A DNA stretch of 51,506 bases from the NCBI GenBank assembly GCA_963755715.1, contig CAVWLW010000062.1, positions 1 to 51,506 of the forward strand, written 5' to 3'. This DNA comes from an uncultured delta proteobacterium (lineage in GTDB: Bacteria; Desulfobacterota; Binatia; UBA9968). Below the pieces are notes generated by a model. It made no database searches, was not told the DNA's origin, and saw only the letters and a program-made list of their open reading frames with translations. This document shows positions 11,267 to 21,744 of this stretch, piece after piece. Each line of letters opens with the position of its first letter. The stretch's first letter is position 1. Position numbers and translations under genes: made by a program.

Positions 11267-12211
11267 TTACTTTTGTCCCAGCACTTCCTTTAAAAAACGC
11301 CAATCCATGATTTTGTCTTCGCTGATTTCTTCGGAAATTTTCAGTTGCTCCCTGGCCAGGCGGATTTCCGAGTCCATGGTGTTTTTCGCGACCCAGCCGT
11401 CGTAGTTGAGCGAGCGCAGCGAAAAGTCGTGAACTTTGGCGGCGCCTTCGGCGCTGACATGAAGATAGTCGCGCATGATCGAGAGCGTCTCGGGCTTATT
11501 GTCTTTGATAAAGCGCACGCCTTTCAGCGTCGCCCGGATGACGCGCACGATTTGACTCGGATTTTTTCGTATCTTGTCCAGCGATACGCCGAAACCGCCG
11601 AGGCGCGTGTGCACGACGTCGCCGAAATAGACAACGGAGACGAGCCCGAGTTTTTCCGCTTTCTCGACGTAAGCCACGTCGAGCGGTGTGGCGTCGACGG
11701 TGCCGGCGATCAATGCCGCAAGCCGTTCGCCGGAGCCGCCGATCGCGAGCGCCGTCACGTCGCGGTCCGGGTTCATGCCGGCCTGCGCCAAAGCTTCGCG
11801 TAAAACGATATGCGGCGCCGAACCGATGGAGCTGACGCCGATCTTTTTGCCCTTAAAGTCGGTCAGCCGCTTGAACCCCGGCTTGGCGATCAAAATATGC
11901 AGCGGGCGGTCGAACCAGCCCATCACGCCTTTGACCGGCAGACCCTGGATGGACGCGCGGGCGATATTCCCGCTCACCGTGGAGTAGTCGAGCTCGCCGG
12001 CGATCAGCGCGGCGGCCTGCAGATTGGTGCGCACGACGACTTTGCGCACCTCGAGGCCTTCGTCTCGGTAAAAGCCTTTGCGCTGAGCGATCTCGGTCGG
12101 CAGCTCATAGAGACCGGGCGTGGAAATGCCGATATACACGACTTCGGCGCGGGAGCCGGCCGGCGCCGCCAGCGCGAGAACAAAGATTGCCAAAGCGAAA
12201 AATCTTGTCAT
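11267..12211 (-). CDS. ABC substrate-binding protein, SsuA/THI5 (NMT1) type
   Basis: Signal peptide; AQRKGFYRDEGL, KGKKIGVSSIGS. Confidence 0.85.
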   Translation of the reverse strand: MTRFFALAIFVLALAAPAGSRAEVVYIGISTPGLYELPTEIAQRKGFYRDEGLEVRKVVVRTNLQAAALIAGELDYSTVSGNIARASIQGLPVKGVMGWFDRPLHILIAKPGFKRLTDFKGKKIGVSSIGSAPHIVLREALAQAGMNPDRDVTALAIGGSGERLAALIAGTVDATPLDVAYVEKAEKLGLVSVVYFGDVVHTRLGGFGVSLDKIRKNPSQIVRVIRATLKGVRFIKDNKPETLSIMRDYLHVSAEGAAKVHDFSLRSLNYDGWVAKNTMDSEIRLAREQLKISEEISEDKIMDWRFLKEVLGQK

Positions 12212-12466
12212 TGACTGCTACCCGCTCGGCGGTGCGGTTAAACTAATACAACAAGCTGCGTGGCCGCAACCGGAATGCGGACAAAATGGCGGGTGCGTGC
12301 GCGATATCCCTGGAAAATTGCCAGATGAATGATCGCCGATGCGAAATCGAATCCAAGTTTAAATTTGTGCTGACTCACGAGACTTTCGTCCGAGGCAAGA
12401 TGCCGGACAGGAAAAACTTCCGAACGCTTTATCAGGATTTTTTCGCGATGATCGGTGGCGACCGCT

Positions 12467-13522
12467 TCAGCGCTTTTTTCCCGGCACCTCGTCACCCCAG
12501 AGCTCTCGGAGGAAGCCGCTCTTGGCGAGATTTTCCGCGAAGCTGTTATCGTAAATTTCGCCAGGCTTGCGGCGTACGTTGGCGCCCGACTGACGCAGAT
12601 TGTCGATCGCTTCGGTGACTCGCCAAGCCGGTACCGTGACGCGGCGGTTGACCAACTGCTTGGCGTAAGCGTCGTAGGCGGATTGCGCAGATTCGGGGTC
12701 TTTGAGCGCCAGCACTTTGCTGACGGATGCCTTGGCTTTGTCCGGGTTTTTCTCGACAAAAAGAATGGCTTCTGCCATGGCGGCCGTAAATTTCTGGACA
12801 ATCGCGGGGTGTTCTCTGAGCAGTTTATCATTAGCAAACACGCTGCTGTAAATGGCGGGCAGGTTCAGATCGTCGAGATGGTAGATAACGTTCAGTCCGT
12901 CGCGCTTGGCGCGCGCATCGAGCGGCGGTGTCACCATCGTCGCCTGTCCCAGGTCTTGCTGCAACGCCGTGTAGATTTCGGTTTGGCCGGCGCCGCCGAT
13001 ATGGCGGATTTTTAGATCGTCGGCGCTGAAGTTGAGTTTCTTCATCAAGGTGCGAATGAGCGTGTCCGGCGTGCCGCCAGGGCGGGTCGCGATGAAGATT
13101 TTACCCTTGAGGTCGTCGATGCGCTTGATGTCTTTGCGCGCGATGATCACCCACGGTAAGCCGATCAACGGCGAGGCGATCATCTTGGCCTCGGCGCCGG
13201 CGGCCAAGCTGGGAATGATCGCGTCGGCCGTGCAATAGAGAAATTGTAGCTCGTTGGCCGTGAGCGCCGCCGCCGAAATTCCGGCGCCGCGCACGAGCAG
13301 CAACTCCGGCTTGAGACCGTATTTGTCAAAAAGGTGATTATCGAGGGCGGTGTTGAGATGGATAAATCCGCCGCTGATGGCGCAGGTGGCGATGCGAATC
13401 GGCACGATCGGCTCGCCGGCTTTGGCCAGATATGGATTGGCCTGAAGCTTCATCGGCGATGATGCCGCGAGGAGAAGCCAGCCAAACAAGCTCGCGCGGG
13501 AAATTATCGGGTGCAACTTCAC
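12467..13522 (-). CDS. ABC substrate-binding protein, SsuA/THI5 type
   Basis: Signal peptide; LFDKYGL, DDLKGK..ATRPGG. Confidence 0.85.
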   Translation of the reverse strand: MKLHPIISRASLFGWLLLAASSPMKLQANPYLAKAGEPIVPIRIATCAISGGFIHLNTALDNHLFDKYGLKPELLLVRGAGISAAALTANELQFLYCTADAIIPSLAAGAEAKMIASPLIGLPWVIIARKDIKRIDDLKGKIFIATRPGGTPDTLIRTLMKKLNFSADDLKIRHIGGAGQTEIYTALQQDLGQATMVTPPLDARAKRDGLNVIYHLDDLNLPAIYSSVFANDKLLREHPAIVQKFTAAMAEAILFVEKNPDKAKASVSKVLALKDPESAQSAYDAYAKQLVNRRVTVPAWRVTEAIDNLRQSGANVRRKPGEIYDNSFAENLAKSGFLRELWGDEVPGKKR

Positions 13523-13554
13523 TTTTCCGGGGGCCTTGCGCAGTGTGAATCGGT

Positions 13555-14190
13555 TTACATGGGCGGCATGATTCCGCCGATGCCGGCGGTGATGCGGGTC
13601 GCCGTGATCGTGCCGTCTTCGCCGCGCACGGCGGCAATGTAAACGCCGGTGCCGGGCTGGAGCAGCGAACGATCGCCGGCGACGTTCTTCACGATCGGCG
13701 TGCCGGGCGGAACGAAGATTTTTTGTTCACCGTCTTTGTATTTCAAAGTCAGAAGCTGGCCCTGCACCTTTTCGGCGGCGAATGCTTCGATCTTGTCAAC
13801 ATTGGCGTTGGTCATGGTCGAGCCGGGTTGGAGATCCCACGGCCGGTGTCCTTCGCCCGTGCCGCGCGAGCTCTCCGGAAAGATGTGCACTTCAAGCGCT
13901 TTGAGCGTGCCGTCCGGCTGTTTCACCGCCGTGGTGCCGACGTAGTTGCCGGCGCCGATGTCGGAGAGCTTGGCCGCTTCGACCGCGCCGACCCGCACGT
14001 CGTCGGCAAACTTCACCAGGACATCGCCCGCCGACGTGGTGACTTTGAGCGCGCCTTTTTCCACGGCGGCGATCTTGCCGCGAATCGTCAACGGCTTGCC
14101 TTGCGGCGCTTGCGCCCGTGCAGATTCGAATTGGCTCACGCTTAGCGCGAGCAAGATTGTCAACCCTGAGCCAAGCAGTACGCGTTTCAT
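13555..14190 (-). CDS. Conserved exported beta-rich protein (DUF5666-like)
   Basis: Signal peptide; ALEVHIFPES.RGTGEGHRPWDL.PGSTMTNA motif. Confidence 0.7.
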   Translation of the reverse strand: MKRVLLGSGLTILLALSVSQFESARAQAPQGKPLTIRGKIAAVEKGALKVTTSAGDVLVKFADDVRVGAVEAAKLSDIGAGNYVGTTAVKQPDGTLKALEVHIFPESSRGTGEGHRPWDLQPGSTMTNANVDKIEAFAAEKVQGQLLTLKYKDGEQKIFVPPGTPIVKNVAGDRSLLQPGTGVYIAAVRGEDGTITATRITAGIGGIMPPM

Positions 14191-14240
14191 GGAATCATGT
14201 CCTTTGGGTGGAATTTGCAAAACTCGGTTTACGGCGCTTA

Positions 14241-15224
14241 TCACTGTGTCAGCGTCGCCAGCGCTTTTTTGTAAAATCGCTCGTCAACGTACTTTTCCGG
14301 TTTGGGCACCGGTGCTTTCATCAGCCCGGCGACTTCGCGCAATTCAATAATCGTGCGGATGCCCTCCATGTCGATGCGGCTGCGCGGCGTGAGGCCCATG
14401 GTCGGGCTGAGCGTGAGGTTGTACAGCGATTCGGCGCGGGCTTTGTTGTTTTTCGTTTCGCCCAGCAACAGTTGGACGGCTTCGTCCTTGTTTTTCGGGT
14501 CTTGCAGCCAATCCGTGGCGCGGATCATCGCGCGGTTAAAGCGCACGACGAGATCTTCGTTGGCGTTGGCCCACTCGCGCCGCGTCGCGCCCAGACCGCG
14601 GGCGTAGTGTTTGACATAATCTTGCGCGTGCGCGAGCACTTTGAAATTGCGTTTCTGGATCTCGTCGTCGGCCAGGCTCATCATCGCGCCGGCGGCGTCG
14701 CCGCGGCTCATGGCATCGGCCCGCGCCGTGGTATTGCCGAAGGATTTAAACGTATAGTCGCGGTTCCACTCGAGGCCGTGCTTTTTCAGGATGTAAACAC
14801 CGACGATGGCATAGCCCGTTGTCGGCGCGTCGACGGCGAAGACTTTGCCTTTGAGATCCGGGTAGCCCGCGATTCCCGGCGCAACGATGAGCTTCTGGTC
14901 GACGCCCTGGCTGCCGCCGAGAAAAATCACGAAATCGTTTTTCTGCGGATCTTCTCCCTGGCCTTCGGCCCAGGCGATGACGTTGTCGGCGTTGTTAAGG
15001 ATGAGATCATATTGACCGCGGATCAGATTGCGCAACAGCGTGGGCGAATCGGTCACTGTGTTGATTTCCACTCGGATGTTTTCTTGTTTGAGAAAACCTT
15101 TGCCTTCGGCGGCGATGATCGCCGCGTCGCGATTGAACAAGCCGATTTTTATCGTATCTTCAGCCATGGCTTCGAGCGGCAGCAACGCCAATATCGCTGC
15201 CATTACCCCCTTGATGAGCTTCAT
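14241..15224 (-). CDS. ABC substrate-binding protein, SsuA/THI5 type
   Basis: Signal peptide; AEGKGFL, DLKGKVFAVDAPTTGYA. Confidence 0.85.
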   Translation of the reverse strand: MKLIKGVMAAILALLPLEAMAEDTIKIGLFNRDAAIIAAEGKGFLKQENIRVEINTVTDSPTLLRNLIRGQYDLILNNADNVIAWAEGQGEDPQKNDFVIFLGGSQGVDQKLIVAPGIAGYPDLKGKVFAVDAPTTGYAIVGVYILKKHGLEWNRDYTFKSFGNTTARADAMSRGDAAGAMMSLADDEIQKRNFKVLAHAQDYVKHYARGLGATRREWANANEDLVVRFNRAMIRATDWLQDPKNKDEAVQLLLGETKNNKARAESLYNLTLSPTMGLTPRSRIDMEGIRTIIELREVAGLMKAPVPKPEKYVDERFYKKALATLTQ

Positions 15225-15363
15225 TCCACCCACCTCCGCGGAGCTGTGCGCCGCTTGTGCCTGTTACTTGTCAAATTTAGCCACCGACCGCAAGGCGAAG
15301 GCGGAAAATTTTTCCGTTGGGTCCGGTGAAGAAAAAAGAATCTGGATCGGCGCGCGTTGCGCT

Positions 15364-15702
15364 TTACAAAGTCGATCGGTGGGATTCGATCGGATCGCTA
15401 AGCTGGATCGTCGGGCCGCTCTCGTCGTCATGCGGCTCTGTTATAGGATCCAGCGCCGTCGTCACTGTGTTGCGCAAGGTCTGCAGCGACTTGGTCAACT
15501 CGCCGCGGATCGCTTCGGTGGTGCGGAAGGCTTCCTGTAAAATTTCTTCATCGCGTCGCTCTTTGAGGTCGGCCAGGATGCGCGCTCGCGTCTCGATGCG
15601 CTTTATCCCGGTGCTCTGGAGATAGGGTTTGAGGTGGGCGATTAAAATTCCGCCGGTGATGCCGGCGGAGAATATCAGCAGGTCGGAAATCCAGTCGCGC
15701 AT
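15364..15702 (-). CDS. Small single-TM protein with a helical/coiled-coil region and acidic tail
   Basis: RBS GGAGG; TM LLIFSAGITGGILIA; charged amphipathic helix; third gene of the amidase-actin unit. Confidence 0.7.
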   Translation of the reverse strand: MRDWISDLLIFSAGITGGILIAHLKPYLQSTGIKRIETRARILADLKERRDEEILQEAFRTTEAIRGELTKSLQTLRNTVTTALDPITEPHDDESGPTIQLSDPIESHRSTL

Positions 15703-15776
15703 TTGCACCTCCATTCGATGGCCGCACGGTGCCTGCAAGCTGAAGAATAATTTCTGCCGCGAATCATGTGCTTAGA

Positions 15777-16808
15777 CTAGAGCGACAGTTTCTCCCAGTC
15801 CGCAGTCGAAGCGTCGCGGGCGATCGCCAGGCTGCCGTCCGATCCGGCAAAAACCGGATCTTTGACTACCGTTGCGCGCCCGCCGCCCAGGTCGCTCAAA
15901 GCCTTAGTCACCGCCTCGGACAGCCCCGAAATCAGCGACGTGCCGCCGGCGAGGATGATGTTGTCGCGAACCTTGTCCTGAAATTCCGGCTCGACTTTTG
16001 TCAGCAACGTCGTCATCGTCTCGCACACCGGCGGCAGGATGCTTTCGCACGCCGCGCGCATTTCCTGGGTGATATCGATTTCCGTCGCCTTGCCCTTGAT
16101 CGGCACGGTGACCATGACGTGGTTTTTGGGCTCGCCGACGAAACTCCACTTTTCCTTCCACTCGCGCAACATGTGGATGGAAAACTGCGCGTCGGGATGG
16201 CGTTCGCGAATCAGCTTGATCAATTGTTCGTCGATCGAATCGCCGGCGTTGGGCAGAGTTTTCTGGTCCTCTTCGGTCGGATAGCGGCCTTGCATGACGC
16301 AGAAATCAGCCGTGCCGGCGCCGATGTCGATGACCAAGGCGTGCAAGAGCGCTTCCAAACCGTAGGCCACGGCGAAGGGTTCGGAGACGAGCATCACACT
16401 GTCGGCGACCCCTTCTATCGTATTGCGCAGATTTTGCCGGCTGACCCGGAAAGCTTCCGCCGGCACGCCGACTACGGCGCGCACCTTGGATTTGTTTTTG
16501 CCTTTTTGCTTGATGCCCGCGAGCGAGATCAGATGGCGCAGGATCTCTTGCACGGCCTCCTGATCTTTTTCGGAGCCATCTTTCATAATGCCGCGCTCGA
16601 GCGGCCGGCGCAGATCGAGCATGGGCCGGTTATCGAGAGCCTCGCGGCCGACTAGGACCGATTTTTTTACCAACTTGCGCGCGACCATGTCGACCGGCCA
16701 GCCGACATAGCTATCGACGACGTGCCGCTCGCCGGTGGACGCGGAGATCGAGCTTCGAGAAGTGCCGAGATCGATGCCCACGCAAAGTGGTTCGTTGGTT
16801 TCTTCCAT
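15777..16808 (-). CDS. Actin-like ATPase, MamK/Mad28-like (MreB superfamily)
   Basis: Phosphate-1 GIDLGTS, VSEPFAVAYGL, phosphate-2 DIGAGTAD, adenosine AGGTS; MamK-like segments PTEEDQKTL..AG, KEKWSFVG, VKDPVFAG..G.L and C-terminal W..L. Confidence 0.85.
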   Translation of the reverse strand: MEETNEPLCVGIDLGTSRSSISASTGERHVVDSYVGWPVDMVARKLVKKSVLVGREALDNRPMLDLRRPLERGIMKDGSEKDQEAVQEILRHLISLAGIKQKGKNKSKVRAVVGVPAEAFRVSRQNLRNTIEGVADSVMLVSEPFAVAYGLEALLHALVIDIGAGTADFCVMQGRYPTEEDQKTLPNAGDSIDEQLIKLIRERHPDAQFSIHMLREWKEKWSFVGEPKNHVMVTVPIKGKATEIDITQEMRAACESILPPVCETMTTLLTKVEPEFQDKVRDNIILAGGTSLISGLSEAVTKALSDLGGGRATVVKDPVFAGSDGSLAIARDASTADWEKLSL

Positions 16809-16811
16809 GAA

Positions 16812-17813
16812 TCAGCTGCCTTTCCTGTCGGCGACGGTAAAGCGATGTGCGTATTGGCGAATCCCTTGTGCGAGCGCCAGCGCGATATTTTCCCGATAAT
16901 CCGGTTTTGTCAACAATTGGACCTCGTCTTCATTGGACAAACAGGCGATCTCAGCCAAGATGGCCGGCATCTGCGTGCCGATCAAAACGACGAAGGGCGC
17001 GGTCCGGACGCCGCGATTTTCCAAATCGGGATTGGCGGTCTTGAGCGACTGAAAGAGCCGGCTTTGAATGGTCCTGGCAAAAACGCGCGATTCGTCGCGT
17101 CGGGCATCGACATAAATCTTTTCGAGGATTTTTTTATAATCCGCGAGGGAATAGTCCGACTCTTTATTTTCCCGGCTGGCGAGCTTGAGCGTGACGGGAT
17201 CGTCGGTGGGACCGACGTAATAAGTTTCCAGCGCTCGGATCGTGTGCGGCTCCATCGAATTCACATGAATCGAAAGGAAGAGGTCGGCCTTGTGCTCGTT
17301 GGCAAAAGCGACGCGCTGGTCGAGAGATAGGCGCCGGTCGGTTTCGCGCGTCAATAAGACTTCGAAGGGGCTGTTGCTCAACAGCCGGCGTAGGCGCAAT
17401 GCGACATCTAAGGTGATCTCTTTTTCGGTAAGACCCGATTCCGCCGTGGCCCCTGGCTCGCCACCGTGGCCGGGATCGATGACGATAGTCTTGATGGAGA
17501 GCGGAATCGCGGTCCGGTCGATCGGTCGAGGGTGTGACAACGGCACGGTCGCTTCCGGTGTCAGGTCGACGTTGATGGCTGCGGCACTGACAGGCGTTGT
17601 GCTCTGGACGGACGCACGGTTGGGCAGGAATTGTGCTGGCACGGCCAACAAATAGACGAGTGCAATGGCGCTCAACGCGCCGAAAATCCACACCCCAAAC
17701 CGGCGACGTGCCTGCGGTTTGGTGCGAACAATCCGGACGCCTTGGACAGTGGCGATATTATCTTGGACCGCGCCACGAAGCAGTCGAGCCTTCGTTTCGC
17801 CGATGCTAGCCAT
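16812..17813 (-). CDS. Membrane-anchored N-acetylmuramoyl-L-alanine amidase (Amidase_3)
   Basis: IVIDPGHGG, EK, LTR, FLSIHVNS, MPAILAEIA (Zn ligands H, E, H and catalytic E); TM at about aa 39-60 and a Pro/Thr linker. Confidence 0.9.
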   Translation of the reverse strand: MASIGETKARLLRGAVQDNIATVQGVRIVRTKPQARRRFGVWIFGALSAIALVYLLAVPAQFLPNRASVQSTTPVSAAAINVDLTPEATVPLSHPRPIDRTAIPLSIKTIVIDPGHGGEPGATAESGLTEKEITLDVALRLRRLLSNSPFEVLLTRETDRRLSLDQRVAFANEHKADLFLSIHVNSMEPHTIRALETYYVGPTDDPVTLKLASRENKESDYSLADYKKILEKIYVDARRDESRVFARTIQSRLFQSLKTANPDLENRGVRTAPFVVLIGTQMPAILAEIACLSNEDEVQLLTKPDYRENIALALAQGIRQYAHRFTVADRKGS

Positions 17814-18092
17814 GCACAGCCTTACAAATAAAACGACAATTTAGTAAAATATTTGCTGATGTTACATTATGTCGGCCCTAGTGCGCAATCCGAAAGGCAG
17901 AGGTCGGGCCACGGATGAACAAAGATTTCCGCTGGAACTTTTTACCCGCGATAAAGCTGTTGCGTAAAATCCTCGACACGATTAATGAGATAGGCGCCGG
18001 CTGATCGAAGGATTTGAACGATTCTTTTACGTGGATTGGCCGAGCAGAAAACTGCCCGGCGATCAGTTCATTTTTCATTTTAGGAGATTCTG

Positions 18093-19065
18093 ATGCCGCT
18101 TTTGCTCAGTGAGACTGACTTGGCGCCGTTGTATCGCGACCCCGCCGCGATGGATAGTTTGCTCGACCGTATCGAAGAATCTATGCGCGCGTTTAACCGC
18201 GGCGCCGTCGCCGGCCAGGTCCGTTTGGAAACGAGCCTGAGCGATCGAACAAAAAAATATCGTATCACTACTTCAGCAGTCCCAAGCGCGGGTCAGGGGA
18301 TGCGCATCAATGCGCTTTTTCGCGGCGCCAAAGATTCCTATTTTATTTTGCTCTTCGATGAAGAACGCGGCGATTTGCTGGCGCTGGTAGCCGGCGCGGC
18401 GCTCAACGTCTGGCGCACGGGCGCTCCCGCCGGCGTCGCCAGCCGATATCTCGCTCCGCCGGGCGCCGATGTGCTGGGACTCATCGGCAGCGGGCGCCAA
18501 GCGCGCGGTCAACTTTTGGCGATTCGCCGGGCTTTGCCGTCGTTGAACAACGTCAAAGTTTTTAGTTCGACCGAAGCGCACCGCGAGAGCTTCGCCAAGG
18601 AAATGAGCGTTTGGCTTGGCATCGATGTCGAAGCGGTAAATAATCCGCGCGCGGCGGTCGAGCATGCGCCGATCGTTAGCATTGCAACCAGCACTCGTTC
18701 GCCAGTCATCGAGCCCGAATGGGTTCGGCCCGGCGCCTTGGTCGTATCGATTACGAGCGGGCAACTGCCGCGCGCGACGATTACAAATTCGCGCGTGATC
18801 GTGTCCTGGAAAGAGGAAGTGCTCGGCGGCGAAGCGCCGCGGCAGCCCTACGCCGGTATGATCGCCGACGGCTCCTGGTCGGCCGACCAAATCGCCGGCG
18901 AGCTTGGCGATGTGCTGCTCGGAAAAATTCCAGCGCGGGTCAGCGAAAACGACACGATCGTTTTCGAATCGGTCGGCATGTCTTTGTGGGACACCACGGC
19001 CACGGCATGGGCTTATCACTGGGCTTTGGAACGAAGGCGTCGGACGCCAATTTTCGCTGGCTTAG
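18093..19065 (+). CDS. Ornithine cyclodeaminase / mu-crystallin family protein (probable +1 frameshift near 19035)
   Basis: WRTGA, GLIGSGRQA Rossmann motif, ELGDVL.GK..R, FESVG.S.WD; the shifted frame gives the typical end GVGRQFSLA* and removes a 170-nt convergent overlap. Confidence 0.85.
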
Positions 19066-20460
19066 GGCGTCGATTGCGCAGGAAAGTTATTTGTCACAAA
19101 TTTCGGCAAAAAATCTTCCAGACGAATTTTTTTCATCACTTCATCCGGCACTCTCAGCTCCGGGGCGAAACCCGTGAGCGGTTTCGTCGCATCCAAGCCC
19201 ATTTTTGCGTTGACGCCGCCGGGACCGGCTGACGGATCGAGCTCGCTGCCCTGGGCGTTCGGGATCACCACCAAGCCGTGATCGGCTTGAAAGCGATTCG
19301 ACACCGCCCAGAGGACCTGTTCTTCATCGAAGACGTCGATGTCGTCGTCGACCACGATCACATGTTTCAGCAGCATGTCCGACGCGAAGGCGGCGCAGAT
19401 CGCGTTCTTCGCCTGACCGGGCGTGCGCTTGGCAATTGAAATATAGGCGTGAAAGCGGCAGTTGCCCGACACCGGCATGCAGACATTTTTCACCGTCGGC
19501 ACGGTTTGGCGCACGGCTTTGATCAGCGCGGCTTCGCGCGGCACCGCGCCCATCAGCTTGTGCTCGGTGTAGCCGGCGTGCACGTCCTGAAAAATATAAT
19601 TCCTGCGATGCGTGATCGCGGTCACTTCGATCACCTGACGATCATCTTTGGAGACTGCGTGGCCGGTGAATTCGCCGAACGGACCTTCTTCGCGCCGGAC
19701 ATCGGGAAGAATTTTTCCTTCGATCACCATCTCGGCGTCGGCGGGAACCAAAATCGGCACCGTCTTCGCTTTCACGACGCGCAGCGCTTCTTCCATCATG
19801 CCGCCGATGACCGCGTATTCGTCTTCCGTCGACGGCGTAAACGCCTGCGCGCCCAAGGAGAACAGCGGATGAACGCCGATAACGATCGCGATGGGAAGCG
19901 GCTCTTTGCGCCGTTCCAATTTGTTGTGCAGCGTCCAGAGATGACGGCCGACCGCCATGAAAATGCGCAGCTCGCGCTTGCGCGCCATCATGAGCCGGTT
20001 ATAGCTGGTGTTTCTCACGCCGCTGTCGGGATCGGCGGCCACGACGATGCCGGCGGTGATATACGGCGCCGCGTTTACGTCATAGTGAGTCAGCAGCGGC
20101 ACTTTTGTCAGATCCACATCAGCATCGACCTTGACGACTTCGTGCACCGGCGCATCTTTGACTTCCACCGGCGCAATCGGCTTGCCTTGCCGCTCGGTGA
20201 ATTTCGTTGCCAGCTCTTCGGGTTTGCACTGCAAGGCCAGCGCCATCAGCTTGCGGCTCGCTTGCACATTGACCACGACGGGAGCGTCGCTGCCTTCGAC
20301 GTTCTCACAAAAAAGCAGCGGAAAACGTTTGCTGCTTTTCCAACTGAGTGAGCAGCGCCGTGATTTCGTAACGCGGCGAGATCGGTTTCGTCACACGGGC
20401 AATTTCTTCCGGCGACGCGGCTTCCAGCTCGGCGATGAAACTGCGCAGGTCTTTGGCCAC
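19062..20460 (-). CDS. UbiD-family decarboxylase (+1 frameshift near 20335)
   Basis: GTG at 20460 gives MAKDLRSFIAELE..ITALL, joining RFPLLFCENV; EGPFGEFTGH, VIVVDDDID, LDPS, KMGLDATKP. Confidence 0.85.
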
Positions 20461-20505
20461 GTTAGAATTCAGCTTTTCTGAAGAATTGACTCAAGGTCAA
20501 TAGGT

Positions 20506-21573
20506 TTATAACGCGTACAGGGCACGTGGGTTATCGTCCAGGATCTTCTTCTTGACCGGATCGGTGACAAGATCGCTCGCTCGGAAGATGTCGATGGCGT
20601 CCACTTCGCTCGACGCGTCGGTGTGGCCGTAGTCGGTGCCGATGACGACGTTATCTTCGCCGGCGTAGCGCAGAACGTATTCGAAGTCGTCGTTGGTCTC
20701 GGTGGTGACGTAGATATTGAATTCTTTGAACGGCAGCTTGGGAAAGCCTTTCGTGCCGCTGCGCCGGATCGCTTCTTTAACGACCCAGGGCACCCATTGG
20801 GCGGAAGCTTCGACAAACGCCCAACGCAGTTTCGGAAAAGTTGTCGGCACGTCGCTCATCATTAAAGACAGACAAGTGATGACCGTCGGTATACGGAACT
20901 GAGCGAAGCCGCCCATGCGATCGTAGCGCGGCTTGAATTGGTCCATCAGTTGCGGACTGCCGTTGGCGATGTGCACGGCGACGACGAGATCCAGCCGTGT
21001 CGCTTCTTCGTAGATCGGATAGAAATACGGATCCACGAGATGCTTGTCGTCTTCGAACGGGCGCAGGCTTACGGCGACGGCGCCGTTCTCCTTGGCGTAG
21101 CGCATTTGCTGGATTGCCTCGTTCAAAGTCATCGCCGGCACGACGCACGACCAGCGCAGCCGATTGTTGCCTTGTTTCCAGACTTCCGCCATCCAGCGGT
21201 TCCACGATTTGCACAGCGCGATTTCCGCTTCGGCTTTATCTGCGACCCGGGCGATCCACATGGTGTTGAAAAGAATTTGCACGTCGATGGCGAGCTTGTC
21301 CATGTGCTTCAAGCGCAGCTCGACGTCGCGCAGCTCGCGCGCCTCGGGCGCGGTTTGGAGCTCCCGTCCGGTTTGTTTGGAAAGGGCGATCAATTCCTGT
21401 TCGGTCAACGTCGGCGGGCGGAACCCGACCGATTTTCCCTCGACGAACCAGTACTGCATGTTGGAGTTGTCGACGGAGCTAAAAAGTTGCGGCCGGAACT
21501 TTTTTTCTGACGCATCGAGAAAATCCCACGTGTGTTCGGTTTCAACGACGTGGGCATCGGCATCGACAATCAT
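20506..21573 (-). CDS. Amidohydrolase_2 family protein
   Basis: DADAHVVE, AVH, GTDYGH; RBS AAGGAG before the ATG at 21573. Confidence 0.9.
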   Translation of the reverse strand: MIVDADAHVVETEHTWDFLDASEKKFRPQLFSSVDNSNMQYWFVEGKSVGFRPPTLTEQELIALSKQTGRELQTAPEARELRDVELRLKHMDKLAIDVQILFNTMWIARVADKAEAEIALCKSWNRWMAEVWKQGNNRLRWSCVVPAMTLNEAIQQMRYAKENGAVAVSLRPFEDDKHLVDPYFYPIYEEATRLDLVVAVHIANGSPQLMDQFKPRYDRMGGFAQFRIPTVITCLSLMMSDVPTTFPKLRWAFVEASAQWVPWVVKEAIRRSGTKGFPKLPFKEFNIYVTTETNDDFEYVLRYAGEDNVVIGTDYGHTDASSEVDAIDIFRASDLVTDPVKKKILDDNPRALYAL

Positions 21574-21744
21574 GGTTTGCTCCTTGAGCGAATACGTTTG
21601 CGACATATTACCAGTGAAACTGACAGCCAACTTCGGACCCATTCTACCTAAGCGAACCCACGGGTCAACCGACGCGTCCCATGCGACGAAGCCTTGCGGC
21701 GGTTTGGCGCTTTTGCGAATCGTGGCTGATGGCGCGAATTCAAA

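What the first reader, a model, noticed from the sequence alone, without database searches (positions are those of the whole stretch)
15364..17813. Orphan MamK-like actin coupled to a membrane-anchored peptidoglycan amidase and a small membrane protein: candidate cytoskeleton-guided wall-remodelling module
Seen: three co-oriented genes. The amidase stop is 3 nt before the actin ATG, and a 112-aa single-TM protein starts 74 nt after the actin. An AT-rich promoter-like region lies upstream (about 17820-17875). No mreC/mreD/pbp2/rodA, mam/mad, gas-vesicle or partition genes are in the window. Established: MamK filaments position magnetosomes and are encoded in magnetosome islands; MreB normally sits with mreCD; bactofilins pair with wall hydrolases to shape cells. 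Inference: a MamK-clade filament may localise an amidase to cut the wall at defined sites (curvature, stalk, budding, cell-cell pores or organelle anchoring), with the small protein as membrane adaptor. I do not know of a described system with this combination.
Basis: partly seen in the sequence, partly recalled or inferred. Interest (0 to 1): 0.9.

Follow-up and report, generated by a model that had tools for sequence, protein, structure and literature searches.

The report
Actin-like filament tethered to wall amidase
A soil bacterium encodes a MamK-like actin right behind a membrane-anchored cell-wall amidase whose short cytoplasmic tail is predicted to dock on the actin, and this gene pair recurs in several bacterial phyla that show no sign of making magnetosomes.

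Summary
They are an Amidase_3 enzyme (16812-17813), a MamK-like actin (15777-16808) and a 112-aa single-pass protein (15364-15702).

The actin is not an orphan. The amidase lies directly upstream of it in 79 of 80 loci from Binatia, Methylomirabilota/Rokubacteria, Acidobacteriota and Entotheonellaceae. It does so in 74 of 80 metagenome loci of a sister actin clade. The genes usually overlap or lie a few bases apart.

The amidase has a conserved N-terminal cytoplasmic helix, a membrane helix, a disordered linker and an AmiA-like catalytic domain with invariant residues at my recalled zinc/catalytic positions. A structure model docks the helix into the actin (ipSAE 0.85; best control 0.07).

The genome also holds mreBCD and an AMIN-type amidase elsewhere. 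Searches for MamI, MamP and MamQ found nothing above cut-off.

The small protein occurs only in close Binatia relatives.

My reading is an actin counterpart of the bactofilin-LmdC module, in which a cytoplasmic filament positions a wall hydrolase. Binding and function are predicted, not shown. I found no description in print. Novelty: a new variant of a known kind. Interest: high.

The parts
17814..17877 (-). AT-rich region upstream of the amidase gene; a candidate promoter on composition alone
   Evidence: GC is 0.34 here against 0.56 for the window. The scan found no minus-strand sigma-70 consensus site. The next gene upstream, 18093-19232 on the + strand, is divergent and OCD-like.
16812..17813 (-). 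Bitopic N-acetylmuramoyl-L-alanine amidase, 333 aa
   Evidence: Pfam Amidase_3, E 2.1e-48. Best solved relatives are AmiB 3NE8 (E 5.5e-32) and AmiA 8C2O. AlphaFold2 model has mean pLDDT 81.4. Foldseek top hit is E. coli AmiA, target TM-score 0.84. H116, E130, H183 and E288 are invariant in 39 sequences.
17745..17804 (-). Codons 4-23 of the amidase: the conserved cytoplasmic helix, predicted to be the actin-docking peptide
   Evidence: Helix 4-23 in the model. N19 is at least 90% conserved. The motif is found in 68 of 74 clade-A and 64 of 65 sister-clade amidases, against 5 of 410 control ORFs. Tail residues 7-20 form the predicted interface.
17643..17702 (-). Codons 38-57 of the amidase: transmembrane helix (signal anchor), preceded by a basic stretch
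   Evidence: Helix 38-57 in the model. Kyte-Doolittle mean over 19 residues is 2.26. A basic flank lies on the N-terminal side.
16833..17489 (-). Codons 109-327: periplasmic Amidase_3 catalytic domain carrying an AmiA/B/C-type insert (about residues 203-250)
   Evidence: Pfam match spans 110-319. AmiB, AmiA and AmiC chains align in one stretch across the insert, whereas CwlV, AmiC2 and CwlD align in two stretches. Residues 58-108 form a disordered Pro/Ala-rich linker.
15777..16808 (-). MamK-like actin, 343 aa, of the amidase-linked subfamily
   Evidence: NCBIfam MamK 376.3 bits against a cut-off of 400. MamK 5LJW E 1.4e-75. It falls in a clade of 27 rows with SH-aLRT 100. The blocks around G11-S17, D161-G165 and G288-G289, and E143, are invariant. 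Their reading as nucleotide-binding motifs is recalled.
15364..15702 (-). 112-aa single-pass membrane protein found only in close Binatia relatives: N-terminal TM, then a conserved charged helical region (residues 25-80) and a variable acidic end
   Evidence: GGAGG lies 5 nt upstream of the ATG. No Pfam, NCBIfam or PADLOC family matched. 171 relatives were found, all unnamed or from Binatia/Deltaproteobacteria MAGs. Conservation profile.

Best explanation
The amidase and the MamK-like actin form a two-gene module that is co-transcribed and probably translationally coupled.

The amidase is a type-II membrane protein. From N to C it has:
- a short cytoplasmic helix, with a core of the form [ILV]-L-R-G-[AV]-[VY]-x-[ED]-N-[LIV] and a basic residue a few positions before;
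- a basic stretch;
- one transmembrane helix;
- a disordered Pro/Ala-rich linker of about 50 residues;
- a periplasmic AmiA/B/C-like zinc amidase domain that keeps its regulatory insert.

The cytoplasmic helix docks into the cleft between actin subdomains IA and IIA. In this way a cytoplasmic ATP-driven filament decides where in the envelope this extra amidase can strip peptides from peptidoglycan.

In close Binatia relatives a third gene adds a small single-pass protein with a cytoplasmic helical domain. It is possibly a second membrane attachment or a regulator.

Shown here: gene order, conservation, domain architecture, the conserved residues, and the presence of the genes in RNA-library contigs.

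Inferred: topology, filament formation, tail-actin binding (model only), enzymatic activity, and the cellular process served (cell separation, pole or septum remodelling, or shape).
For: Synteny.
- The amidase lies directly upstream of the actin in 79 of 80 genome loci (63-99% actin identity). They come from Binatia, Rokubacteria/Methylomirabilota, Acidobacteriota and Entotheonellaceae MAGs. The one miss, L075, is cut at the actin start.
- The same holds in 74 of 80 metagenome loci of the sister clade.
- The amidase stop and the actin start mostly lie -3 to +7 nt apart in clade A, or overlap as ATGA.
- Outside Binatia I noticed no recurring neighbour in the gene-order listings; the gene calling there was noisy.

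Tree. The amidase-linked actins form one clade (SH-aLRT 100). With the sister group the support is 99. The clade is separate from the one holding the best MamK-model scorer, P0022. In G000's phylum the actins at 49-53% identity have the amidase. Those at 34-42% do not, within the DNA fetched.

Tail. It is conserved across phyla, and N19 is as conserved as the catalytic residues.

Complex model. ipSAE was 0.86, 0.85 and 0.85. The best of 3 controls was 0.07. The partner's pLDDT was 66-68 and the runs agreed in at least 87% of contacts. This mark was reached by 58 of 80 solved complexes and 2 of 110 mismatched pairs, counts that hold only roughly because I used my own alignments.

Interface. Interface residue R128 is basic in both amidase-linked clades (100% and 90%) and hydrophobic in the other clades.

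An extra enzyme. This genome also has an AMIN-Amidase_3 protein and mreBCD. Four other carrier genomes have 2-3 Amidase_3 genes each.

RNA. Contigs from RNA libraries of two studies bridge the amidase/actin junction, and contigs cover the small gene.

Precedent. [quoted passage not shown]
Against: - No experiment exists. Binding rests on one model, and such models can pass from likeness to solved actin-peptide complexes. ParM-ParR and actin-WH2 are the examples I recall.
- The cleft is conserved in the whole MamK superfamily (F145, Y149, L154 and G174 in all groups). Interface conservation is therefore only slightly above the rest of the protein (0.88 against 0.77).
- The tail motif regex was written after I had seen the sequences.
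- A twin arginine precedes the hydrophobic helix in 39 of 52 clade-A proteins. A cleavable Tat-type signal is therefore not excluded.
- The RNA-library contigs may contain DNA and cannot show a single transcript.
- One sister-clade locus, L201, has an M48-TPR gene upstream instead of the amidase.
- The distribution is patchy within phyla: 25 of 301, 14 of 151 and 12 of 301 genomes sampled. The module is therefore dispensable for most relatives.
Confidence: 0.6

Rival explanations
1. End-tracking or anchoring machine of the ParMRC kind. The tail binds only the free cleft at one filament end. Growing MamK-like filaments would then push or carry the amidase through the membrane, or the wall-bound amidase would anchor the filament ends. 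The filament would not act as a static scaffold. This is a variant of the best explanation with a different mechanism.
For: The predicted contacts are actin residues 124-155, 174-176 and 329-341. By my reading this is the cleft between subdomains IA and IIA. From recall, ParR binds ParM there, and neighbouring subunits insert there in actin-like filaments. The ATGA overlaps suggest matched, coupled synthesis.
Against: The model used a monomer and says nothing about filament ends. The subdomain assignment and the ParM analogy come from recall and were not tested here. No centromere-like or adaptor multimer is evident.
Confidence: 0.15
2. Export-coupled interaction only. The N-terminus is a cleavable (Tat- or Sec-type) signal with a long n-region. 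The actin-fold ATPase binds it before export, as a dedicated chaperone or targeting factor. The mature amidase is then free in the periplasm.
For: RR lies within 12 residues before the hydrophobic helix in 39 of 52 clade-A amidases. From recall, E. coli AmiA and AmiC are Tat substrates, and Tat signal-binding chaperones exist. The best fold match is AmiA.
Against: RR is present in only 17 of 49 sister-clade proteins. The helix is strongly hydrophobic, with a median Kyte-Doolittle value of 1.9-2.1 over 19 residues. A disordered Pro/Ala-rich linker follows the helix in both clades (median 54.5 and 85 residues), as expected of a tether. The actin is 63-90% identical across phyla with invariant motifs, which is typical of a polymer. 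No signal-peptide predictor was available.
Confidence: 0.12
3. Co-regulation without contact. The two proteins act in the same process, for example division or cell separation, and are merely co-expressed. The conserved tail binds something else, such as a divisome protein or lipid.
For: Operon neighbours often do not bind each other. The tool's own text says 7 of 44 blind-picked neighbours passed its mark. The tail's partner has not been measured.
Against: Adjacency is near-obligate across two actin clades and several phyla. The tail motif shifts between the clades together with cleft residues: tail A-V with actin Y176/A333/D337, against tail V-Y with actin I/M/Y. This is a single event and so weak evidence. 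The complex score was 0.85 against a best control of 0.07.
Confidence: 0.1
4. Displaced remnant of a magnetosome gene cluster, or a misassigned MreB.
For: The NCBIfam MamK model gives the top hit at 376 bits.
Against: MamI gave no hit. That search also rang in none of the 14 control genomes, so it does not show absence. MamP reached at most 31.5 bits against a cut-off of 300, and MamQ at most 86 against 250, which is the level seen in control genomes. The subfamily is separate from the clade with the top MamK-model scorer. MreB models score 63-87 bits, while the genome's own MreB scores 500 and sits with mreC and mreD.
Confidence: 0.02

Closest known systems
MamK, the magnetosome actin of Magnetospirillum (PDB 5LJW, 5JYG, 5LJV)
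   Same: It is the closest solved relative: E 1.4e-75, aligned over residues 7-341. E143 and the conserved glycine-rich motifs are kept. NCBIfam MamK is the best-scoring model.
   Different: The score is below the family cut-off (376 against 400). The representative that scores highest on the MamK model (P0022, 508 bits) is 41% identical and lies in another clade. No MamI, MamP or MamQ hit reached its cut-off in the genome. The partner here is a wall amidase, not magnetosome proteins.
Bactofilin BacA with the M23 endopeptidase LmdC (Hyphomonas neptunium, Rhodospirillum rubrum; PMC10945521)
   Same: A cytoskeletal gene lies next to the gene of a bitopic peptidoglycan hydrolase. The hydrolase's conserved N-terminal cytoplasmic region binds the polymer. 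The pairing is conserved in many species (passages read). This is the closest functional analogue.
   Different: The polymer there is a nucleotide-independent bactofilin, and here it is an actin-fold ATPase. The hydrolase there is an M23 endopeptidase with a coiled coil, and here an Amidase_3 enzyme with a disordered linker. The tail there is a beta-hairpin, and here a predicted helix. Binding here is predicted, not measured.
Cell-division amidases AmiA/AmiB/AmiC (PDB 8C2O, 3NE8, 4BIN)
   Same: The catalytic fold is the same and an insert is present where their regulatory helix lies. H116, E130, H183 and E288 are invariant.
   Different: There is no AMIN domain. The N-terminus is a conserved cytoplasmic helix plus a TM anchor. 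The NCBIfam equivalog cut-offs are not reached. The genome has a separate AMIN-Amidase_3 protein.
LytH-ActH of Staphylococcus aureus (PDB 7TJ4)
   Same: It is a membrane-anchored Amidase_3 enzyme that depends on a membrane partner (entry title; the biology is recalled).
   Different: The partner there is a polytopic membrane protein acting outside the cell. Here the predicted partner is a cytoplasmic actin. The sequence match is weak (E 4.2e-14).
Other MamK-like actins from outside known magnetotactic bacteria: BeeR (Verrucomicrobiota, PDB 8R2N; PMC11929497) and saltatorellin (bioRxiv 10.1101/817700)
   Same: They are actins nearest to MamK, found in bacteria not known to be magnetotactic, with unknown cellular roles (passages read).
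   Different: The BeeR model scores 218.8 against a cut-off of 530. The 30-50-residue N-terminal extension described as BeeR's hallmark is lacking. Neither paper mentions an amidase: the term occurs 0 times in each.
ParM-ParR, MreB-RodZ and MreBH-LytE (recalled, not tested here)
   Same: These are bacterial actins that bind a short partner peptide or domain (ParR, RodZ), or that direct a wall hydrolase (MreBH-LytE).
   Different: They belong to different actin families and have different partners. None couples to an Amidase_3 enzyme through a transmembrane tether, as far as I recall.

Membership tests
MamK family (NCBIfam NF040964) | Whole-protein score at or above the curated cut-off of 400 bits | tested here: not met
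   376.3 bits. Clade relatives score 371-425, and P0022 scores 508.
MamK family (magnetosome function) | Encoded in or with a magnetosome gene cluster (mamI, mamP, mamQ and others) | tested here: not met
   MamI gave no hit, but that search rang in no control genome either, so it does not show absence. MamP reached at most 31.5 of 300 bits and MamQ at most 86 of 250, as in the control genomes. The genome is 93.6% complete. The scanned flanks (window about 13.5-19.2 kb) gave Pfam matches only to NMT1-like, DUF5666 and ornithine cyclodeaminase families.
MamK family | ATP-dependent polymerisation into filaments | not testable with these tools
   Only the invariance of G11/D13-S17, D161/G163-G165, G288-G289 and E143 was seen. 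Their role in ATP binding and hydrolysis is recalled.
MreB | Score above the MreB model cut-offs, and linkage to mreC/mreD | tested here: not met
   TIGR00904 63.1 of 365.75 bits; NF010539 75.8 of 293. The true mreB-mreC-mreD set lies on contig C34.
BeeR | Score at or above 530 bits, and a disordered N-terminal extension of 30-50 residues | tested here: not met
   218.8 bits. The MamK model's position 1 already aligns at residue 8, so no such extension is present. The extension is described in PMC11929497.
Amidase_3 (PF01520), N-acetylmuramoyl-L-alanine amidase | Domain match above the gathering score, with the zinc and catalytic residues kept | tested here: met
   165.1 bits against 27. H116, E130, H183 and E288 are invariant in 39 sequences. 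Their assignment as zinc ligands and catalytic Glu is recalled, not computed.
AmiA/B/C-type regulated division amidases | Regulatory (autoinhibitory) insert in the catalytic domain | tested here: inconclusive
   AmiB, AmiA and AmiC chains align in one stretch across residues about 203-250, whereas CwlV, AmiC2 and CwlD align in two. The top fold match is AmiA, target TM-score 0.84. The model's pLDDT is 67-70 over residues 221-240. Whether the helix blocks the active site was not examined.
AmiA/B/C-type regulated division amidases | AMIN targeting domain or equivalog-level similarity | tested here: not met
   Pfam reports only Amidase_3. AmiA scores 106.5 of 400, AmiC 78.8 of 700 and AmiB 71.9 of 532.
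CwlD (sporulation amidase, TIGR02883) | Score at or above 221.55 bits | tested here: not met
   119.8 bits.
Cytoskeleton-hydrolase tether of the bactofilin-LmdC kind (works-like class, not a sequence family) | Conserved adjacency of the polymer gene and a bitopic hydrolase gene | tested here: met
   79 of 80 and 74 of 80 loci. Tail, TM, linker and catalytic-domain architecture.
Cytoskeleton-hydrolase tether of the bactofilin-LmdC kind | Direct binding of the hydrolase's cytoplasmic tail to the polymer | tested here: inconclusive
   The model supports binding (0.85; best control 0.07; mark reached by 58 of 80 solved and 2 of 110 mismatched pairs). No measurement exists.

The most novel reading that the evidence does not exclude
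The amidase-linked clade shows a non-magnetosome, possibly older, job of MamK-type actins. In this reading they are an ATP-driven filament system that grips a bitopic peptidoglycan amidase by its cytoplasmic helix at the barbed-end cleft. The filament then moves or holds the amidase like ParM holds ParR-bound cargo, giving processive or site-specific wall cutting from inside the cell. Magnetosome MamK, the coiled-coil-linked MamK-like actins and the long fusion proteins would be later re-uses of the same cleft-and-peptide docking principle.
Probability: 0.15. Interest if true: 0.9.

Novelty: new variant of a known kind. Interest (0 to 1): 0.78.

Why it matters
MamK is known as the magnetosome actin. 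What its many relatives do outside magnetotactic bacteria is largely open. BeeR and saltatorellin have structures or filament images but no known cellular role.

This module gives one large MamK-like subfamily a concrete, testable partner and a defined docking peptide.

It also extends a principle shown so far for bactofilin and an M23 peptidase to an actin-fold ATPase and an amidase. The principle is a cytoplasmic polymer that holds a bitopic wall hydrolase by its tail. This suggests the design evolved more than once.

The carriers include Binatia, Rokubacteria and several Acidobacteriota lineages. By my recall these are abundant and mostly uncultured soil groups whose cell biology is little known. 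Near-identical DNA was found in soil and rhizosphere runs of 13 studies.

There is a practical point for annotation. The NCBIfam MamK model scores several proteins above its cut-off although the neighbours I scanned matched no Mam model. A 'MamK' label alone is therefore no sign of magnetotaxis.

Tried and rejected
Magnetosome remnant. Rejected. MamI, MamP and MamQ family searches of the genome gave nothing above cut-off. One further guessed accession, NF040962, turned out to be an unrelated family, near_HgcAB, so that call was wasted.

Conserved third gene. Rejected outside close Binatia. The downstream genes differ by lineage. By eye from their first residues they look NUDIX-like, SelA-like and LigA-like. 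I did not scan them.

Conserved upstream genes. In Binatia these are UbiD-like and amidohydrolase-like genes, judged by eye from the translations. I noticed none that recurs beyond Binatia.

Gene calling. My own longest-ORF and codon-usage gene calls on the loci were noisy, with antisense shadow ORFs. I relied on tblastn and on targeted ORF reading instead.

Amidase-actin fusion. Open frames of 666-726 aa around the actin in some genomes suggested a fusion. On inspection the two genes are in different frames with ATGA overlaps. The long frames are an effect of 66-76% GC.

Defence system. PADLOC gave only a weak 18.7-bit hit for the actin and nothing for the other two proteins.

Small protein. 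It matched no Pfam, NCBIfam or PADLOC family. The protein-atlas hits were at most 0.79, below the level that means anything.

RNA data. Parts of the stretch without cover in the RNA-library contigs are not evidence of anything.

Literature. The searches were: 'MamK' with 'amidase' (2 papers, both unrelated); 'actin-like' with 'N-acetylmuramoyl-L-alanine amidase' and 'filament' (12 papers, of which the ParM paper I opened lists a sporulation amidase only as a neighbour of chromosomal ParM genes); MamK with the phylum names; and MamK-like with cell wall. None described this pairing. Subscription journals and supplementary files were not searchable, so a mention there cannot be excluded.

Unpublished genomes. 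G005 and G035 are flagged unpublished. Both had an actin match and are included in the counts 29 of 61 and 28 of 36. No other claim rests on them.


Full report
OBSERVATION

- The 333-aa protein (16812-17813) is an Amidase_3 enzyme (165 bits, cut-off 27).
- The 343-aa protein (15777-16808) scores 376.3 bits on the NCBIfam MamK model, just under its cut-off of 400. It scores 218.8 on BeeR and only 63-76 on MreB models. Its best solved relative is MamK of Magnetospirillum (5LJW, E 1.4e-75), followed by BeeR (8R2N, 2.9e-42) and MreB (1JCE, 8.2e-15).
- The small protein most likely starts at the ATG at 15702, behind a GGAGG. The amidase stop and the actin ATG are 3 nt apart.
- The region 17814-17877 has GC 0.34 against 0.56 for the window. 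The consensus scan found no sigma-70-like site on the right strand.

THE GENOME

The window is contig C62 of a 7.4-Mb assembly in 76 contigs, 93.6% complete. Record titles of near-identical and related contigs name Candidatus Binatia MAGs.

The genome has a canonical MreB (500 bits) followed by MreC and MreD on another contig. It also has a second amidase of the AMIN-Amidase_3 type, 569 aa.

Searches with the NCBIfam models gave the following.
- MamI: no hit. That search also rang in none of the 14 control genomes, so it does not show absence.
- MamP: at most 31.5 bits against a cut-off of 300.
- MamQ: at most 86 bits against 250, the LemA-like level that control genomes also reach.

SYNTENY

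Within the genus, all 19 fetched loci hold the amidase next to the actin, and 15 of 19 hold the small protein. Actin identity there is 84-99%, amidase 63-95% and the small protein 42-75%. The family-level count (28 of 36 genomes with the actin) includes two unpublished genomes, G005 and G035.

A scan of one genome per species found 181 relatives. Of the best 80 loci (63-99% actin identity), 79 have the amidase immediately upstream, and the one miss is cut at the actin start. By record title these loci come from Binatia, Rokubacteria/Methylomirabilota, Acidobacteriota (Thermoanaerobaculia, Holophagae, Terriglobia), Entotheonellaceae and a few differently labelled MAGs.

The amidase stop and the actin start mostly lie -3 to +7 nt apart. 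In the high-GC Acidobacteriota and Rokubacteria loci checked they overlap as ATGA.

tblastn found the small protein in only 15 of these 80 loci, all close Binatia. Its 171 database relatives carry no family, and their only names are Binatia or Deltaproteobacteria MAGs, or 'hypothetical protein'. Downstream and upstream genes differ by lineage. The conserved unit is therefore the pair.

PLACE IN THE ACTIN FAMILY

A search of 1.84 billion representatives gave 1131 hits at E up to 0.001, and 186 at E up to 1e-30.

I built a tree of 99 rows with a quick IQ-TREE search, SH-aLRT support only, rooted on the genome's own MreB. The rows were the window actin, 22 amidase-linked actins, the representatives of 325-430 aa, and the C-terminal 345 residues of the long representatives. 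Shorter fragments were left out, as were P0018 and P0113.
- The amidase-linked actins form one clade of 27 rows (support 100) with short internal branches.
- Its sister is a small group around P0005 (97). Together they have support 99.
- The representative that scores highest on the MamK model (P0022, 508 bits) sits in a different, well-supported clade.

I then fetched 80 metagenome loci of the sister group (45-54% identical to the window actin). Of these, 74 have the amidase directly upstream. Five of the six misses have under 175 nt of upstream DNA. One, L201, has an M48-TPR protease gene there instead.

In the phylum that the tool assigns to this genome, 12 of 301 sampled genomes have a MamK-like actin at E up to 1e-60.
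- Besides G000, only the two at 50-53% identity by that search (G084, G346; 49-53% by tblastn) are amidase-linked.
- The loci fetched for six of the other nine genomes (34-42% identity) show no amidase. For five of them about 5-7 kb was fetched on each side; the sixth, L211, is only 3.4 kb long.
- Of the two loci whose neighbours I scanned, one has a long SMC-like coiled-coil gene next to the actin and the other a short coiled-coil ORF between two tandem actins.

In samples of the phyla of two other carriers, 25 of 301 (Acidobacteriota by record title) and 14 of 151 (Rokubacteria/Methylomirabilota) genomes have the actin. The module is widespread but patchy.

THE AMIDASE

An AlphaFold2 model from 39 sequences (mean pLDDT 81.4) shows these parts:
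- a helix at residues 4-23;
- a second helix at 38-57;
- a disordered stretch at 58-108;
- a compact domain at 109-327.

The second helix is strongly hydrophobic (Kyte-Doolittle 2.26) and is preceded by a basic stretch. This fits an N-in signal anchor.

The catalytic domain's best fold match is E. coli AmiA (target TM-score 0.84). AmiB, AmiA and AmiC chains align in one stretch across residues about 203-250. Amidases that lack the regulatory insert align in two stretches. H116, E130, H183 and E288 are invariant in 39 sequences. Their assignment as zinc ligands and catalytic Glu is from recall.

The first helix is the surprising part. It lies in the cytoplasm, yet it is conserved from Binatia to Acidobacteria and into the sister clade.
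- A loose pattern written after inspection finds it in 68 of 74 and 64 of 65 full-length amidases, against 5 of 410 unrelated ORFs from the same loci.
- N19 is at least 90% conserved, like the catalytic residues.
- The order of tail helix, basic spacer (14-34 residues in most), membrane helix and Pro/Ala-rich linker (median 54.5 residues in clade A, 85 in the sister clade) is kept. This was measured on the 52 and 49 proteins that have both the motif and an exact DPGHG.

THE PREDICTED CONTACT

The verdict was that the model supports binding and does not show it.
- ipSAE was 0.86, 0.85 and 0.85. The best of three controls was 0.07.
- The partner's pLDDT was 66-68, and the runs agreed in at least 87% of contacts.
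- This mark was reached by 58 of 80 solved complexes and 2 of 110 mismatched pairs. These counts hold only roughly because my own alignments were used.

Tail residues 7-20 touch actin residues 124-128, 138-155, 174-176 and 329-341. I read this as the cleft between subdomains IA and IIA. From recall, that is the pocket used by ParR on ParM and by neighbouring subunits in actin-like filaments. The pass may therefore partly reflect likeness to solved actin-peptide complexes.

The core cleft residues (F145, Y149, L154, G174) are conserved in all MamK-like groups. R128 is basic only in the two amidase-linked clades (100% and 90%). Y176/A333/D337 in clade A change to I/M/Y in the sister clade, while the tail changes from A-V to V-Y. 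This is one event, so it is a hint and not a test.

EXPRESSION

Near-identical DNA occurs in soil and rhizosphere runs of 13 studies. Contigs from four soil RNA libraries cover parts of all three genes at 90% identity or more. Two of them, from two studies, bridge the amidase/actin junction: 16417-16972 and 16764-16914. Such contigs can contain DNA and cannot prove a single transcript.

INTERPRETATION

The simplest account of near-obligate adjacency, coupled translation, a conserved cytoplasmic peptide on a periplasmic enzyme, and the docking model is a physical tether. A MamK-like filament in the cytoplasm would hold or move an extra, probably regulated, wall amidase.

This is what bactofilin BacA does with the bitopic M23 peptidase LmdC through LmdC's N-terminal cytoplasmic region. 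That pairing is also conserved as neighbouring genes (PMC10945521; passages read).

Which process is served cannot be read from the sequence. Candidates are cell separation, pole or septum remodelling, and shape.

The rivals are an end-tracking, ParM-like mechanism; a cleavable export signal with the actin-fold protein as a pre-export partner (RR before the helix in 39 of 52 clade-A but only 17 of 49 sister-clade proteins); and mere co-regulation.

PRIOR DESCRIPTION AND NOVELTY

MamK-like actins outside magnetotactic bacteria are described: BeeR (PMC11929497) and saltatorellin (bioRxiv 10.1101/817700). I read matching passages of both papers, and neither mentions an amidase.

Full-text searches for MamK with amidase, and for actin-like with the amidase name, found no description of this pairing. 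Subscription journals and supplementary files were out of reach.

I class the finding as a new variant of a known kind: a cytoskeleton-hydrolase tether with new parts.

TOOLS NOT AVAILABLE

Noticed in passing
P0016, P0017, P0019, P0021, P0023, P0026-P0029, P0033-P0035, P0042, P0043: Fourteen representatives of 523-1232 aa carry a C-terminal MamK-like domain (39-43% identical to the window actin). It follows a long N-terminal region that looks coiled-coil-rich from its first residues. They form their own clade with SH-aLRT 99. Their context and function are unknown.
   Followed up: partly
P0071 (768 aa): Its N-terminus reads like an FtsZ/tubulin GTPase start (judged by eye, not scanned), and its C-terminus is a MamK-like domain. 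In the tree it sits in the clade of the top MamK-model scorer P0022. It may be a tubulin-actin fusion.
   Followed up: no
L206:4992-8335 (G186) and L209:6986-9839 (G330): These MamK-like actins are 34-42% identical to the window's and score 435 and 459 bits, above the MamK cut-off. No amidase lies nearby. In L206 the actin sits beside a long SMC-like coiled-coil protein. In L209 a short coiled-coil ORF lies between two tandem actin genes. None of the neighbours I scanned matched a Mam model, so the curated model names proteins 'MamK' where I saw no magnetosome context.
   Followed up: partly
window 11267-15233 (minus strand): A run of ORFs that look like three related periplasmic binding proteins (14241-15233, 12467-13522, 11267-12211), interleaved with a 229-aa secreted protein that has a weak DUF5666 match (13555-14244). 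This run follows the trio in many Binatia loci. Only 14241-15233 (NMT1-like) and 13555-14244 were scanned against Pfam.
   Followed up: partly
window 19062-21642 (minus strand): A UbiD-like decarboxylase ORF and an amidohydrolase-like ORF, judged by eye from their translations and not scanned. In other Binatia loci homologues of these lie directly upstream of the amidase in the same direction. In this window an ornithine cyclodeaminase-like gene on the other strand (18093-19232) separates them from the amidase.
   Followed up: no
G547, G557, G595, G631, G770, G718; L212-L217: Stop-to-stop open frames of 666-726 aa around the actin look like amidase-actin fusions. They are an effect of 66-76% GC: the two genes are in different frames with ATGA overlaps.
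   Followed up: yes
L201:3020-6029: This is the only sister-clade locus with ample upstream DNA and no amidase. An M48 peptidase with TPR repeats lies upstream of the actin, and a 122-aa ORF with no family match lies downstream.
   Followed up: partly
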